From NCBI RefSeq assembly GCF_058153355.1, contig NZ_CM177019.1: a stretch of DNA of 64,000 bases; one strand, written 5' to 3'. Position 1 is the first letter of the stretch, and the number at the start of each line of letters is the position of its first letter. Position numbers and translations under genes: made by a program. The notes beneath the pieces were generated by a model. That model was given only the letters and a program-made list of their open reading frames with translations, had not been told where the DNA came from and ran no database searches. This document shows, one piece after another, positions 6,039 to 63,840 of this stretch.

Positions 6039-6776
6039 TTATGTATTGCTGCTGTTTGCGGCGATGATTTTCGCTACTTTTTCAGCTTGCGCATTCATCT
6101 GCATCTGACGGTATGCATTTTCCATCAGCGGCAGCGCATCACGCGTAGCCTGGGTATCCGGATAGTCGCGCAACATGCCTTCTACGCGGTTAACGACAGC
6201 AACCCATGCACCACGTTCTGTATAATACTCGGCAACGGAGTATTCATATTTCGCCAGACGATCTTTCAGGAATACCAGACGTTTGGTGGCATCGGTGGTG
6301 TACTGACTGTTCGGATAGCCGCGCACCAGTTTGGAAAAGTCACTAAACGCAGCTCGTGCATGTTGAGGATCGCGATCGCTACGGTCAACGCCAAAGAACC
6401 CTTGCAGCGCACTGTCATCCAGCGCCATATTGGTCAGGCCACGCATGTACATGACATAATCGATATTCGGATGGGTCGGGTTAAGGCGAATAAAACGATC
6501 GATGGCAGCCTGTGCTAACGGCAAATCGGCGTTTTTATAGTAGGCGTAGATGAGATCCAGCTGCACCTGCTGCGAATACGGACCAAACGGATAGCGATTA
6601 TCTAACGCTTCCAGTTGCGTTATTGCCTGTCTCCAGTTACCGTCCTGCAGCTTTTGTTGTGCAGTCGCGTAAATTTCATTTGGCGGATTATCAGGTACTT
6701 CTTCCTTTGACCCCGAGCAACCCGCCAAAAACAGGCTTAGTGTGGCGGCTGCCACCAGATATTTCATGCGCGTCAT
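6039..6776 (-). CDS. bamD: Outer membrane protein assembly factor BamD (TPR lipoprotein)
   Basis: 245-aa ORF, lipobox LFLAGCSG, recognised as BamD/YfiO. Confidence 0.95.
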
Positions 6777-61045: not shown

Positions 61046-61468
61046 ATGCGCAGAGATATGCAACTTGTTCTGGAGCGGTGGGGGCGATGGGCCGCGAGCG
61101 AGGAATACTGTTCAATGGTTGACTGGCCTTCGATGTCGGTGATGCCTCAACGCGTAACCGCCAGTGGCAAACCCGGTTGCTCCGACGAGGACGGAGCCGC
61201 AATTGACACCTGCATCGCCCACATGAGCATGGTGTGTCCGCATGACGACTTGCTGGTTCTTGGCCTACGTTTCATCGGCGGCTTTTCTACGCGCTCAATC
61301 GCTGAATCTGTGAATCGTAGCCACCTTAGCGTCAGAACATCGCTTAGAGCGTCAGAGGCATTTCTTGAGGGAGCGCTGGTGCTCCAGGGAATTCGACTGG
61401 ATATGGACCCTGAAGTTGCTTTACCTGAAAAGGTTGTGTGCGCACAAAAACATGTGCTATGGTTGTAG
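61046..61468 (+). CDS. Q-like late-gene antiterminator
   Basis: 140-aa ORF MRRDMQLVLERWGRWAA... resembling prophage Q N-termini; located just before lysis cassette. Confidence 0.65.
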   Translation: MRRDMQLVLERWGRWAASEEYCSMVDWPSMSVMPQRVTASGKPGCSDEDGAAIDTCIAHMSMVCPHDDLLVLGLRFIGGFSTRSIAESVNRSHLSVRTSLRASEAFLEGALVLQGIRLDMDPEVALPEKVVCAQKHVLWL

Positions 61469-61521: not shown

Positions 61522-61751
61522 AATGCTCTATTCTCAGTAAAAGTTAATAAAACAGGGTTTTCGTCGCGAAAAAACGCTATGCATTTTTTGCCCTTTTTTA
61601 TGCACCTTTTATTCACTCGAATTTCGTCATTCTGGACCACTTAAGTTGATTAAATAGGCCTTTCATCGCAAATCTATTGCGAGCGGTGATCGTGTGGTTC
61701 CTATAACGTACATTATGTTAAATAACTTCCTTTTTTTAACAAATTTAACAA

Positions 61752-61775
61752 GGTTCGCTATGGCGAACTTTTTTT
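61752..61775 (+). terminator. Intrinsic terminator upstream of lysis genes (tR'-like)
   Basis: GGTTCGC-TATG-GCGAAC followed by TTTTTTT. Confidence 0.7.
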
Positions 61776-61876
61776 GTATTCAGGGCCCACCGAAGGACGG
61801 CTCATAACCCAATCCTACGGGCGTATACGCAGGGCCCGCCTTTCAACAACACCCCGTAATGGCGGAGGTGGGAAGT

Positions 61877-62218
61877 ATGAAAATGCACAATGCTCCTCAT
61901 TCCTGGCCTGGCTTACTGGAACTCTTACAAAGTTGGTGGCGTGGAGATACGCCGTTGGGCGCAGTGGTTATGTCAATTGTTATGGCTGGTTTGCGCATCG
62001 CCTATTTTGGCGGTGGCGGCGGCTGGAAACGAAAAACGCTCGAGATTTTGCTCTGTGGCGCTCTGACGCTGACTTTTGCATCCGCTCTTGAGTATGTCGG
62101 ATGGCCTAAATCACTTTCTGTTGCCATTGGTGGTGGTGTTGGGCTGATCGGTGTCGATGCTATTCGTGGGGCTGCAATGCGAGTAATCGGTAACAAGTTT
62201 GGTGGCTCTAAGGAGTAA
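61877..62218 (+). CDS. Putative holin (three TM segments, MKM dual-start motif)
   Basis: ORF 61859..62218 trimmed to MKMHN after GGAGG SD; three hydrophobic segments; directly upstream of endolysin. Confidence 0.55.
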   Translation: MKMHNAPHSWPGLLELLQSWWRGDTPLGAVVMSIVMAGLRIAYFGGGGGWKRKTLEILLCGALTLTFASALEYVGWPKSLSVAIGGGVGLIGVDAIRGAAMRVIGNKFGGSKE

Positions 62219-62221
62219 TTC

Positions 62222-62698
62222 ATGCAGACACTAAATTCCCAACGTAAAGCTTTCCTGGATATGGTGGCCTGGTCAGAAGGAACGGATAACGGGCGACAAC
62301 CGACACGTAATCACGGTTATGACGTTATCGTCGGAGGTGAGTTGTTCACTGATTACTCCGATCACCCTCGCAAACTTGTCACGCTAAACCCGAAGCTTAA
62401 ATCAACAGCCGCAGGCCGGTATCAGCTTCTTTCACGCTGGTGGGATGCCTACCGCAAGCAGCTTGGCCTGAAAGATTTTTCGCCAGAAAGTCAGGACGCT
62501 GTGGCGCTGCAGCAGATTAAAGAGCGTGGCGCTTTACCGATGATTGACCGTGGCGATATTCGTCAGGCAATCGACCGTTGCAGCAATATCTGGGCGTCGT
62601 TACCTGGTGCAGGTTACGGTCAGTATGAACATAAAATCGGTGACCTGATTTCCAGGTTTAAAGATGCTGGTGGGGTGGTAAATGAAGCTGACTTATAA
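62222..62698 (+). CDS. R: Lambda R-type endolysin (lytic transglycosylase)
   Basis: 158-aa ORF; QRKAFLDMVAWSEGTDNGRQPTRNHGYDVIVGGELFTDYSDHP is near-identical to recalled lambda R. Confidence 0.92.
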   Translation: MQTLNSQRKAFLDMVAWSEGTDNGRQPTRNHGYDVIVGGELFTDYSDHPRKLVTLNPKLKSTAAGRYQLLSRWWDAYRKQLGLKDFSPESQDAVALQQIKERGALPMIDRGDIRQAIDRCSNIWASLPGAGYGQYEHKIGDLISRFKDAGGVVNEADL

Positions 62699-63206
62699 GA
62701 TTGTCATCGCGGCATTTTTCTTCTCTGTCTTTGGGGCGCTCGTCTGGTCTGCAAACCATTACCACAGCAAGTATCAGGCAGAAAAGTTGCGGGCTGATAA
62801 AGCGGAAGGTGAAGCTGAATATCAAGGGAAAGTGATAGCTAATCAGGCATTAAACTTCAATCGTTTTAACCAGATAGCAGAAAACGCAAGCCGATTAAAT
62901 TCTCTGGTCGACATCGGTCACGAGAAGACAGTCATCAAATACCGTGAGGTTTTGCTCCGTGAAAAGAACTGTGATTTCCCTGTTCCTGTTGATATTGCTG
63001 TCGGGTTGCTCAACTACGCGAACCGTTTACGCGCCAGCGCATTGCACTCCGATTCCGGGGACATTGACTCAGCCGGTGATCGTGCCACTACCACCAGAAC
63101 GTTGACATATTGCCAGGCTGTTCTGTGGATTAACCCACTGTTGGCAGCCATCGAGAAGGCGAATAACCAGTTGGCTGGTGTCCGACAAATAGAACAGTCC
63201 CGGTAA
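62682..63206 (+). CDS. Rz: Rz-like i-spanin
   Basis: 174-aa ORF with N-terminal TM helix and coiled-coil body, overlapping end of R. Confidence 0.7.
   Translation: MKLTYKIVIAAFFFSVFGALVWSANHYHSKYQAEKLRADKAEGEAEYQGKVIANQALNFNRFNQIAENASRLNSLVDIGHEKTVIKYREVLLREKNCDFPVPVDIAVGLLNYANRLRASALHSDSGDIDSAGDRATTTRTLTYCQAVLWINPLLAAIEKANNQLAGVRQIEQSR
62959..63105 (+). CDS. Rz1: Rz1-like o-spanin lipoprotein embedded in +1 frame of Rz
   Basis: Unlisted 48-codon ORF (GTG start, GAGG SD): KRTVISLFLLILLSGC lipobox then Pro-rich STTRTVYAPAHCTPIPGTLTQPVIVPLPPER. Confidence 0.65.
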   Translation: MKRTVISLFLLILLSGCSTTRTVYAPAHCTPIPGTLTQPVIVPLPPER

Positions 63207-63267: not shown

Positions 63268-63840
63268 ATGACTAAGAAGCTGAAAGCAAAACACGAGGTG
63301 TTTTGTCGCGAGTTTCTTGTCGATCTGAATGCTACACAAGCAGCTATTCGCGCAGGCTACGCCTCCAGGCGAGCACATGTTACGGGGGCTGAACTATACG
63401 GTAAACCTGAGATACGCGCCCGTATTAACGAGCTAAAGCAGGAGCGTATTGATCAACTGGGCATTGATGCGAATTATATGCTGATGCGACTGGTTGAGAT
63501 CGACAGGCTCGATGTGGCTGACATCCTGGAGGACGATTTAAGTATTAAGCCTCTGTCTGCGTGGCCGGAATCGTGGCGTCGGTACCTGAGTGGATTTAAC
63601 CTCGCTGAAATGTTTGAGGGGCGAGGAGATGACAGAGAAATGGTCGGGATCCTTAAAAAGATTAAGTGGCCTGATAAGGTTAAAAACCTTGAGTTGCTTG
63701 GGCGTCATGTTTCTGTTCAGGCGTTTAAAGACAACGTCAAAAATGAAGTGACTGGCGCTGATGGAGGACCAGTCAGAACAGAAATTACCAACTTAACGCC
63801 GGAGCAGGCTGCAGAGGCGTATAGAAAAATGATGGGCTAA
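63268..63840 (+). CDS. Terminase small subunit
   Basis: 190-aa [27 protein letters not shown] matches terminase small-subunit N-terminal motif. Confidence 0.75.

What the first reader, a model, noticed from the sequence alone, without database searches (positions are those of the whole stretch)
62959..63105. Rz1-type lipoprotein embedded in the +1 frame of Rz
A 48-codon GTG-initiated ORF with a lipobox (LLSGC) and Pro-rich mature region lies entirely inside the Rz-like gene in the +1 frame, completing the spanin pair. It is below the ORF-track cut-off and easily missed.
Basis: partly seen in the sequence, partly recalled or inferred. Interest (0 to 1): 0.25.

Follow-up and report, generated by a model that had tools for sequence, protein, structure and literature searches.

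The report
Embedded outer-membrane spanin gene inside Rz
A real but usually unannotated 48-codon lipoprotein gene sits in a second reading frame inside the prophage's Rz lysis gene; it is an ordinary, already catalogued kind of phage lysis protein, but its family appears to have passed half of that protein to its partner Rz by a one-base frame change.

Summary
ORF 62959..63105 (+) is GTG-initiated and 48 codons long. It lies in the +1 frame inside the Rz-like i-spanin gene 62682..63206 and has a GAGG Shine-Dalgarno, a lipobox (LSG|C17), Ser at +2 and a Pro-rich 32-aa mature peptide.

It is a real gene. Across 34 lineages, nucleotide variation in the mature-peptide region falls on the wobble position of the +1 frame. 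It returns to the Rz wobble right after the conserved stop.

It belongs to the embedded spanin family of phages HK225/mEp237/ZF40 (Kongari 2018), not to the lambda Rz1 family. The same protein is annotated once as "lipoprotein Rz1 precursor", but RefSeq and four phage records omit it. The finding itself is therefore ordinary and known.

One further result goes beyond the finding. The last 35 residues of this Rz are homologous to the C-terminal helix of the overlapped o-spanins (SfV Rz1, P2 LysC, PF23793).
- A virtual Rz1+Rz-C-terminus fusion matches PF23793 end to end (E 4e-11).
- A profile-profile comparison gives E 1.3e-6.
- The Rz C-terminus alone hits an o-spanin PHROG (E 1.9e-8).

This links the embedded and overlapped architectures by a net -1 frame switch. 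I found no evidence for programmed frameshifting.

The parts
62959..63105 (+). Rz1-like o-spanin gene (48 codons plus TGA), +1 frame inside Rz
   Evidence: Conserved in all relatives with the same stop position. Wobble-phase variation lies in its own frame. tblastn gives 71% identity to mEp237/HK225. phrog_456 'Rz-like spanin' E 8.5e-7.
62946..62949 (+). Shine-Dalgarno-like GAGG, 9 nt upstream of the GTG start (relatives have GGGAG at the same place)
   Evidence: Read from the sequence and from the start-region alignment. Inferred, not tested.
62959..63006 (+). Signal peptide of the lipoprotein precursor (M1-G16: n-region K2 R3, h-region VISLFLLILL, lipobox L14-S15-G16)
   Evidence: Rule-based scan. 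Both reading frames are constrained here: diversity 0.05-0.14 at all three codon phases.
63007..63102 (+). Mature 32-aa lipopeptide (C17-R48): lipidated Cys17, Ser at +2, second Cys (C29), 7 Pro
   Evidence: Amino-acid diversity is 0.113 in this frame against 0.352 in the Rz frame. It aligns ungapped to positions 1-31 of an SfV-type o-spanin profile.
63103..63105 (+). Rz1 stop codon (TGA), overlapping Rz codons L141/T142. This is the point at which the frame under selection switches.
   Evidence: The stop is at the identical position in all relatives, as TGA or TAA.
62682..63206 (+). Rz-like i-spanin gene (174 aa)
   Evidence: phrog_214 'Rz-like spanin' E 1e-58, covering 3-173 of the protein. 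Residues 1-126 match SfV Rz at E 1e-20. RefSeq calls it 'hypothetical protein'.
62700..62747 (+). Predicted N-terminal transmembrane segment of Rz (I7-W22)
   Evidence: Hydrophobic run read from the translation. Type II topology is inferred by analogy with lambda Rz.
63033..63098 (+). Variable D/S/G/A/T-rich linker of Rz (about residues 118-139), encoded opposite the mature Rz1 peptide
   Evidence: The Rz-frame sequence varies freely here while Rz1 is nearly invariant.
63099..63203 (+). C-terminal helix of Rz (residues 140-174, TLTYCQAVLWINPLLAAIEKANNQLAGVRQIEQSR), homologous to the C-terminal helix of overlapped LysC/SfV-type o-spanins
   Evidence: - SfV-type profile positions 32-66, second-best hit of 1901 six-frame segments.
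- hhalign probability 90.6%, E 1.3e-6.
- phrog_3001 (an o-spanin family) E 1.9e-8.
- The virtual fusion matches PF23793 positions 1-68 of 69 at 43.1 bits.
- The Vibrio 83AMN Rz against the Pm34 o-spanin gives E 7e-7.
62222..62698 (+). Endolysin (lambda R-like), overlapping the Rz start
   Evidence: phrog_90 E 2e-63. RefSeq calls it 'glycoside hydrolase family 24'.
61877..62218 (+). Lambda-family holin (start MKMH..., M-K-M dual-start motif)
   Evidence: PF05106 E 4e-27. RefSeq coordinates.

Best explanation
The ORF 62959..63105 is the outer-membrane subunit (o-spanin) of a two-component spanin. It is encoded in the +1 frame inside the gene for its inner-membrane partner Rz, at the end of a holin-endolysin-spanin lysis cassette of an E. 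coli prophage.

Inferred mechanism, by analogy with lambda Rz/Rz1:
- The late transcript is translated from an internal GTG with its own Shine-Dalgarno.
- The 48-aa precursor is exported, lipidated at Cys17 and cleaved by signal peptidase II.
- Because residue +2 is Ser, it is sorted to the outer membrane.
- The 32-aa Pro-rich lipopeptide binds the periplasmic part of Rz, a type II inner-membrane protein. The complex spans the periplasm.
- After the endolysin removes the murein, the complex disrupts the outer membrane, probably by fusing it with the inner membrane.

The pair belongs to the HK225/mEp237/ZF40 embedded spanin family.

Additional finding: this family is a frame-switched relative of the overlapped LysC/SfV-type spanins.
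- In those phages the o-spanin is a lipid anchor, then a ~32-aa Pro-rich linker, then a ~38-aa alpha-helix.
- Here the linker alone is Rz1. The helix is read in the Rz frame as the last 35 residues of Rz.
- A collinear path through the o-spanin profile needs a net -1 shift at nt 63099.
- The helix has therefore moved from one subunit of the complex to the other. An overlapped gene pair became an embedded one with a lambda-like layout: a several-helix Rz carrying an added C-terminal helix, and a short unstructured Rz1.
For: Gene reality:
- The ORF, frame, lipobox and Shine-Dalgarno are in the sequence.
- The ORF is conserved with an identical stop position in all 85 related loci examined.
- The start codon alternates between GTG and ATG.
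- Variation sits on the Rz1 wobble position over the mature peptide (0.345 against 0.06 and 0.08). It sits on the Rz wobble position before and after.
- Amino-acid diversity there is 0.113 in the Rz1 frame against 0.352 in the Rz frame.

Context: holin PF05106, endolysin phrog_90 and Rz phrog_214 are followed directly by the small terminase subunit.

Family:
- 71% identity to mEp237/HK225 and 61% to ZF40. These are listed as an embedded family in PMC6139136.
- The same protein is annotated 'putative lipoprotein Rz1 precursor' in E. coli O103:H2 12009.

Frame switch:
- PF23793 positions 1-33 match Rz1 and positions 31-68 match the Rz frame.
- The virtual fusion scores 43.1 bits (E 4e-11), against 16.9 bits for Rz1 alone.
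- An SfV-type HMM searched against all 1901 six-frame segments of the window ranks Rz1 first (profile 1-31) and Rz residues 140-174 second (profile 32-66). All other segments have E >= 2.9.
- hhalign gives E 1.3e-6.
- PHROG cross-hits: the Rz C-terminus hits o-spanin phrog_3001 at 1.9e-8, and SfV Rz1 hits i-spanin phrog_214 positions 133-175 at 2.9e-4.
- An independent Vibrio pair, 83AMN Rz against the Pm34 o-spanin, gives E 7e-7.
- The overlapped i-spanin ends where the embedded Rz linker begins.
- The AlphaFold2 model of the SfV-type o-spanin is unstructured for residues 1-33 and a helix for residues 35-73 (pLDDT 96-98). The helix starts at the switch point.
Against: - No experiment shows expression, lipidation or lysis function for this locus or, to my knowledge, for any member of the HK225-type family.
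- No LipoP or SignalP tool was available, so the signal peptidase II site rests on a rule-based reading.
- The pairwise SfV Rz1 against window Rz C-terminus match is weak on its own (E 0.001 over 22 aa). The case rests on profiles and collinearity.
- The direction of the change (overlapped to embedded) is inferred only from the wider spread of helix-bearing o-spanins (P2, SfV, Pm34). It is not based on a rooted tree.
- How the short Rz1 contacts Rz is unknown. The single-chain AlphaFold2 chimera was uninformative (mean pLDDT 44.8).
Confidence: 0.9

Rival explanations
1. Programmed -1 ribosomal frameshifting near 63099 joins the Rz1 frame to the Rz frame. The functional o-spanin would then be an ~82-aa LysC-type protein sharing its C-terminus with Rz, and the 48-aa product would be a by-product or a second isoform.
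For: The two conserved segments abut exactly. When joined by a -1 shift they match PF23793 end to end. Selection switches frame precisely at the Rz1 stop.
Against: - There is no slippery heptamer at the junction.
- The codons before the stop vary freely at their third positions (CCA/CCG/CCC/CCT; GCG/GCA/GAA/GTT; CGC/CGT/CAA/AAT/CCC).
- There is no stable RNA structure downstream (z -0.23).
- The stop codon is kept in every lineage, as TGA or TAA.
- The only contiguous close relatives in 5.8 billion proteins are single-genome frameshift chimeras.
Confidence: 0.03
2. The +1 ORF is a chance open frame with a fortuitous lipobox, not a gene. The phage would use Rz alone or another route to breach the outer membrane.
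For: Short alternative-frame ORFs are common. Most annotations omit this one. It fails the Pfam gathering thresholds on its own.
Against: - Wobble-phase variation lies in its own frame, and the peptide is nearly invariant while the Rz frame opposite it drifts.
- The start, lipobox and stop are conserved in all relatives.
- The same rule flags only two other loci in the whole window.
- It is homologous to annotated o-spanins.
Confidence: 0.01
3. The locus is a decaying LysC-type overlapped o-spanin gene that suffered a recent inactivating frameshift in a defective prophage. The 48-codon ORF would be a truncated pseudogene remnant.
For: Relative to PF23793, the ORF is only the N-terminal half of the domain. 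The window is a prophage in an E. coli chromosome.
Against: - The arrangement is identical in at least 34 lineages down to 56% Rz identity. These include free phages of Escherichia, Serratia, Providencia, Pectobacterium and Vibrio.
- Both halves remain under purifying selection in their present frames.
- The four 99%-identical records are deposited as Escherichia phage genomes, vB_EcoM-606R2 and relatives.
Confidence: 0.02
4. Translation starts at the upstream GTG 62944, giving a 53-aa precursor as annotated in E. coli O103:H2 12009, rather than at 62959.
For: GTG 62944 opens the mechanical ORF. One GenBank annotation uses it. The lipoprotein rule also accepts it.
Against: In relatives codon 62944 is a Gly codon, while 62959 is GTG or ATG in nearly all. 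The Shine-Dalgarno-like GAGG/GGGAG lies 9-10 nt before 62959 and overlaps 62944. The mature product would be the same either way.
Confidence: 0.08

Closest known systems
Embedded spanins of phages HK225, mEp237 and ZF40 (i-spanin and o-spanin 'groups of 3' in Kongari et al. 2018, PMC6139136)
   Same: The architecture is the same: the o-spanin is fully embedded in the +1 frame. The mature peptide has the same 32-aa length and the same stop position. Rz1 is 61-71% identical. Rz has the same C-terminal LTYCQAVLWI..NNQLAGIRQIE segment.
   Different: The N-terminal ~39 codons of the window's Rz (the transmembrane region) are of the SfV type, 89% identical at the DNA level, rather than the mEp237 type. 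This Rz is therefore a mosaic.
Lambda Rz/Rz1
   Same: The cassette order is the same (S, R, Rz with Rz1 embedded in +1). Rz1 is a short Pro-rich unstructured lipoprotein with a Cys at precursor position 29. Rz has two periplasmic Cys. Function and mechanism are presumed to be the same (lambda facts from PMC6139136).
   Different: There is no significant sequence similarity: Rz1 E 0.018, and Rz similar only over the transmembrane region at E 2e-4. No lambda-type Rz1 Pfam family is hit. The mature peptide is 32 aa against 40 aa in lambda.
Overlapped spanins of SfV/SfII/SfIV, Klebsiella phage Mulock, Vibrio phage Pm34 and P2 LysB/LysC (o-spanins of Pfam PF23793)
   Same: The i-spanin core is homologous (E 1e-20 and 3e-5). 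The N-terminal lipobox and Pro-rich half of the o-spanin is homologous (E 1e-7). The C-terminal helix is homologous.
   Different: In those phages the helix is part of the o-spanin, whose gene runs 136-157 nt past a 130-aa Rz. Here the helix is read in the Rz frame, Rz is 174 aa, and the o-spanin stops before the helix. Rz1 alone does not reach the PF23793 threshold (16.9 against 27 bits).

Membership tests
Two-component spanin, o-spanin subunit (functional class; criteria as used by Kongari et al. 2018) | The gene lies within, overlaps or adjoins an i-spanin gene in a lysis cassette | tested here: met
   It is embedded in the Rz-like ORF, which follows the holin and endolysin genes.
Two-component spanin, o-spanin subunit (functional class; criteria as used by Kongari et al. 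2018) | N-terminal signal peptidase II signal with a lipobox and a Cys to be lipidated | tested here: met
   MKRTVISLFLLILLSG|C passes a rule-based scan that flags only three loci in the window. The Pfam LPAM_1 hit is weak (18.5 bits, cut-off 20). No LipoP or SignalP tool was available.
Two-component spanin, o-spanin subunit (functional class; criteria as used by Kongari et al. 2018) | Outer-membrane sorting (no Asp at +2) | tested here: met
   Residue +2 is Ser in the window and in every relative examined. The sorting rule itself is established knowledge and was not tested here.
Two-component spanin, o-spanin subunit (functional class; criteria as used by Kongari et al. 2018) | Partner i-spanin with an N-terminal transmembrane domain and a helical periplasmic domain | tested here: met
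   Rz residues I7-W22 are hydrophobic. It hits phrog_214 at E 1e-58. Helices are predicted, although at low confidence.
Two-component spanin, o-spanin subunit (functional class; criteria as used by Kongari et al. 2018) | Required for outer-membrane disruption (complements lambda Rz/Rz1 amber mutants) | not testable with these tools
   This needs a lysis assay in Mg2+-supplemented medium.
HK225/mEp237/ZF40 embedded o-spanin family (Kongari 2018; at least 40% identity over at least 40% of the length) | Sequence identity above the family threshold to a listed member | tested here: met
   tblastn gives 70.8% identity over 100% of the length to mEp237 and HK225, and 61.4% over 92% to ZF40.
HK225/mEp237/ZF40 embedded o-spanin family (Kongari 2018; at least 40% identity over at least 40% of the length) | Embedded architecture | tested here: met
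   The stop lies 101 nt before the Rz stop. The geometry is the same in all relatives.
Lambda Rz1 family | Significant sequence or profile similarity to lambda Rz1 | tested here: not met
   BLASTP gives E 0.018 over 24 aa. No lambda-type Rz1 Pfam model appears at E <= 1.
Pfam PF23793 (Rz1-like lysis system protein LysC) | The whole protein reaches the gathering score (27 bits) and covers the 69-position profile | tested here: not met
   Rz1 alone scores 16.9 bits and covers profile positions 1-33 only. Only the artificial Rz1+Rz-C-terminus fusion scores 43.1 bits over positions 1-68. P2 LysC, SfV Rz1 and the Pm34 o-spanin score 56-65 bits.

The most novel reading that the evidence does not exclude
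The HK225-type embedded spanins, including this locus, arose from an overlapped LysC/SfV-type pair. A net one-base frame change, together with absence of the old Rz stop, moved the o-spanin's C-terminal alpha-helix onto the i-spanin.

This would be the first documented link between the embedded and overlapped architectures. The reference survey found no such link at its family threshold and concluded that the two evolved by unrelated pathways.

It would also mean that a helix can be swapped between the two subunits of a membrane-fusion complex without loss of function. That suggests a route by which lambda-like layouts (an Rz with an added distal helix and a short unstructured Rz1) can arise.
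Probability: 0.6. Interest if true: 0.5.

Novelty: already known. Interest (0 to 1): 0.35.

Why it matters
For annotation, this is a genuine gene that NCBI's pipeline and several phage submissions omit. The 64-kb window matches an E. coli O121 genome at 100% over the Rz region, and the Rz region is found in 123 complete E. coli genomes. In the RefSeq rows listed, Rz is named only 'hypothetical protein'. The lysis cassette is therefore read as incomplete.

For spanin biology, the extra result gives a concrete and testable example of how overlapping genes can exchange a structural module by a frame change. It also shows how the embedded architecture can derive from the overlapped one. It predicts that the non-covalent interface of the spanin complex sits in a different place in the two types.

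Tried and rejected
There is no meaningful similarity, so family membership with lambda Rz1 is rejected.
- **NCBIfam scan of Rz, Rz1 and the fusion.** Only sub-threshold generic lipoprotein-signal hits and no spanin model.
- **Programmed frameshifting.** The junction alignment shows no slippery site and the downstream RNA fold is no better than shuffles. Rejected as unsupported.
- **Search for close relatives with a contiguous Rz1-helix ORF**. It found only one-off chimeras such as P0001 (78 aa, named LysC by NCBI), P0003-P0005 and P0007. These read as frameshift errors or mutations, so no natural intermediate was found.
- **AlphaFold2 on a single-chain Rz-linker-Rz1 chimera with a paired 27-sequence alignment.** Mean pLDDT was 44.8 and pTM 0.24. 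It is unusable for contacts; only the helical propensity of the Rz C-terminus is noted.
- **Literature.** The full-text searches I ran (a fourth failed) and reading of PMC6139136 and PMC12596118 found no report of the i-spanin/o-spanin cross-frame homology. The library is incomplete, so prior description cannot be excluded.

Full report
**1. Observation**

The sequence at 62959..63105 (+) is a GTG-initiated ORF of 48 codons ending in TGA. It encodes MKRTVISLFLLILLSGC|STTRTVYAPAHCTPIPGTLTQPVIVPLPPER.
- It lies entirely inside a 174-codon ORF, 62682..63206, at an offset of 277 nt. That is the +1 frame.
- The mechanical ORF begins 15 nt earlier, at GTG 62944.
- A GAGG at 62946-62949 lies 9 nt before GTG 62959.
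- The signal has K2 and R3, a 10-residue hydrophobic core, the lipobox L-S-G-C17 and Ser at +2.
- The mature part is 32 aa with 7 prolines and a second Cys.

**2. Context**

The surrounding genes form a lambda-style lysis cassette.
- Holin, 61877..62218: PF05106 at E 4e-27.
- Endolysin, 62222..62698: phrog_90 at E 2e-63.
- Rz-like i-spanin, 62682..63206: phrog_214 at E 1e-58 over the whole length.
- The small terminase subunit follows at 63268.

The region is 100% identical to an E. coli O121 chromosome. The Rz region occurs in 123 of 5426 complete E. coli genomes. Four Escherichia phage genomes are 99% identical. In RefSeq, Rz is 'hypothetical protein' and there is no CDS for the embedded ORF. 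The phage records also lack it.

**3. Is it a gene?**

I collected 80 related loci from IMG/VR and annotated phages.
- In all 85 related loci examined the +1 ORF is open and has a lipobox. These amount to about 37 distinct protein variants, with Rz identity from 56 to 99%.
- The ORF ends at exactly the same nucleotide in all of them, in a TGA or TAA overlapping the Rz codons for L-T of a conserved LTYCQ motif.
- The start is GTG in most lineages and ATG in one (L069). Codon 62944 is a Gly codon elsewhere, so 62959 is the start.

The alignment is gap-free, so variation can be phased. Nucleotide diversity in 34 representatives (<97% identity) by Rz codon position:

| Region | Window coordinates | Rz pos 1 (= Rz1 wobble) | Rz pos 2 | Rz pos 3 (= Rz wobble) |
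|---|---|---|---|---|
| Upstream of Rz1 | 62805-62958 | 0.185 | 0.126 | 0.438 |
| Rz1 mature peptide | 63010-63102 | 0.345 | 0.060 | 0.080 |
| After the Rz1 stop | 63106-63191 | 0.104 | 0.027 | 0.414 |

- Over the mature peptide the peak falls on the wobble position of the +1 frame. Elsewhere it falls on the Rz wobble position.
- Amino-acid diversity over the mature peptide is 0.113 in the Rz1 frame and 0.352 in the Rz frame.
- Both frames are constrained over the signal peptide.

This is direct evidence of purifying selection on the embedded ORF.

A simple lipoprotein-signal rule applied to all 2126 candidate starts of the window flags this locus and only two other ORFs, on the minus strand at 6776 and 18721.

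**4. What it is**

- The peptide is 70.8% identical to unannotated or differently annotated +1 ORFs inside the Rz genes of mEp237 and HK225, and 61% identical to that of ZF40.
- Kongari et al. 2018 list exactly these three phages as one embedded i-spanin family and one embedded o-spanin family (PMC6139136).
- The same 53-aa translation is deposited as 'putative lipoprotein Rz1 precursor' from E. coli O103:H2 12009.
- Similarity to lambda Rz1 is negligible (E 0.018), and no lambda-type Rz1 Pfam family is hit.

It is therefore an o-spanin by position, signal, selection and family. It is a functional analogue of lambda Rz1, not a family member. The mechanism I give (export, lipidation, cleavage by signal peptidase II, Lol-dependent sorting to the outer membrane, complex formation with Rz, and disruption or fusion of the outer membrane after murein degradation) is inferred from the lambda paradigm as summarised in PMC6139136. 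It was not shown here.

**5. An unexpected relationship**

Pfam PF23793 (LysC, the P2-type Rz1-like o-spanin) gave two weak hits that fit together. Profile positions 1-33 matched the Rz1 ORF, and positions 31-68 matched residues 136-173 of Rz, in the other frame.

An artificial fusion of Rz1(1-46) with Rz(139-174) matches the profile end to end (positions 1-68 of 69) at 43.1 bits and E 4e-11. That is above the 27-bit gathering score. Rz1 alone scores 16.9 bits.

Phages SfV and Mulock have the overlapped architecture, and RAH1 and Pm34 read the same way. Rz is about 130 aa, and the 105-112-aa o-spanin ORF runs 136-157 nt past the Rz stop.
- SfV o-spanin: CGSTRTVYVPIPAVPLPASLTTETPQPVIPEP-LTYGASLDLNVSLLSALGQCNIDKAGIRSIE...
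- Window Rz1: CSTTRTVYAPAHCTPIPGTLTQPVIVPLPPER, then stop.
- Window Rz frame continues: T-LTYCQAVLWINPLLAAIEKANNQLAGVRQIE....

**6. Tests of that relationship**

- *(a) Six-frame search.* I built an HMM from 117 SfV-type mature o-spanins and searched all 1901 six-frame segments of the window.
  - The Rz1 ORF ranks first (profile 1-31, E 5e-4) and Rz residues 140-174 rank second (profile 32-66, E 0.013).
  - Every other segment has E >= 2.9.
  - The two matches are ungapped and collinear, and they meet at nt 63099 with a one-base overlap. That amounts to a net -1 shift.
- *(b) Profile-profile comparison.* Thirty overlapped o-spanins against the C-terminal ~95 residues of 23 embedded Rz proteins give probability 90.6% and E 1.3e-6. 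This aligns the o-spanin C-terminal half with the Rz C-terminus.
- *(c) PHROG cross-hits.*
  - The Rz C-terminus alone hits phrog_3001 at 1.9e-8. SfV Rz1 hits the same family at 4e-23.
  - SfV Rz1 hits the C-terminal positions 133-175 of the embedded i-spanin family phrog_214 at 2.9e-4.
  - The fusion covers phrog_456 positions 11-90 at 4.8e-14.
- *(d) An independent pair from Vibrio phages shows the same relationship.* The C-terminus of the 83AMN Rz (embedded type) matches the Pm34 o-spanin (overlapped type) at BLASTP E 7e-7.
- *(e) The i-spanin cores are homologous.* The overlapped Rz ends where the variable linker of the embedded Rz begins (E 1e-20; E 3e-5).
- *(f) Structure prediction.* AlphaFold2 on the SfV-type mature o-spanin gives an unstructured residue 1-33 segment (pLDDT ~61-65) and a single helix at 35-73 (pLDDT 96-98). 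The helix starts at LTY, the switch point.

**7. Interpretation of the switch**

- The arrangement is not a recent pseudogenising frameshift. It is identical in all lineages sampled, and both parts are under selection in their present frames.
- It is unlikely to be decoded by programmed frameshifting.
  - There is no slippery heptamer, and the third positions before the stop vary freely.
  - The downstream RNA folds no better than shuffles (z -0.23).
  - The only contiguous close relatives in the protein database are one-off chimeras.
- I conclude that the C-terminal helix has been transferred between the two overlapping genes.
  - In the LysC/SfV type it belongs to the o-spanin.
  - In the HK225 type, including this window, it belongs to the i-spanin. 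Rz1 is left as a bare 32-aa lipopeptide.
- Helix-bearing o-spanins are spread over P2, SfV and Pm34. The overlapped state is therefore probably ancestral, but this is inference without a rooted tree.
- The resulting layout (Rz with an added C-terminal helix and two Cys; a short Pro-rich Rz1 with a Cys at precursor position 29) resembles that of lambda.
- In one sub-lineage (L033-L035) Rz1 has lost its second Cys while Rz keeps both. This is compatible with the lambda rule that one distal disulfide suffices (PMC6139136).

**8. Relation to the literature**

Kongari et al. found spanin families that mix the overlapped and separated architectures. [quoted passage not shown] Their families used a threshold of 40% identity over 40% of the length, so a cross-frame remote relationship would not have been seen. 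I found no report of it in the searchable library, which is incomplete.

**9. Verdict**

The object itself is an ordinary, already catalogued embedded o-spanin that annotation pipelines often miss. The added value is the frame-switch homology with LysC-type o-spanins. It is well supported computationally, but its functional meaning and its direction are untested.

Noticed in passing
window 61904-62798: DNA similarity to SfV, SfII and SfIV (88-90%) runs from the holin through the endolysin and stops about 117 nt into Rz. The window's Rz is therefore a mosaic. Its N-terminus and transmembrane region are shared with phages of the overlapped spanin type, and the rest is of the embedded HK225 type. 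Other embedded-family members carry unrelated N-termini.
   Followed up: partly
window 61859-61885 and 61970: The holin start is annotated inconsistently. RefSeq uses ATG 61877 (MKMH..., an M-K-M dual-start motif like lambda S107/S105). The longest ORF starts at 61859. The four 99%-identical phage records annotate a shorter holin corresponding to a start at 61970.
   Followed up: partly
window 61750-61781: There is a terminator-like hairpin (AAGGTTCGC-TATG-GCGAACTTT) followed by a T run. It lies between the Q-like antiterminator ORF (61046..61468) and the holin, where a tR'-type terminator read through by Q would be expected.
   Followed up: no
protein P0001 (one E. coli genome); also P0003, P0004, P0005, P0007: Database proteins join the Rz1 frame and the Rz frame in various ways. 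P0001, for example, reads ...TLTQ then TGDRATTTRTLTYCQ... and is named 'Rz1-like lysis system protein LysC' by NCBI. Each is seen on only one contig, so they are most likely frameshift errors or mutations. P0001 shows that the LysC model recognises the joined halves.
   Followed up: partly
L003 (Serratia phage OS31) 1012-1335 and L090 (BZS1) 712-1035: These GenBank records annotate the embedded Rz1 as a 107-aa protein starting far upstream. The lipobox lies about 75 residues in, so the start is probably mis-set. In OS31 and in BUCT708 the codon aligned with the usual GTG start is not a start codon; a TTG a few codons upstream is a candidate.
   Followed up: partly
window 6776 and 18721, minus strand: The lipoprotein-signal rule also flags two other ORFs. 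Their N-termini are [20 protein letters not shown]... and [15 protein letters not shown].... From memory these look like the E. coli lipoproteins BamD and YfiM, but I did not search them. If so, the first part of the window is host chromosome rather than prophage.
   Followed up: no
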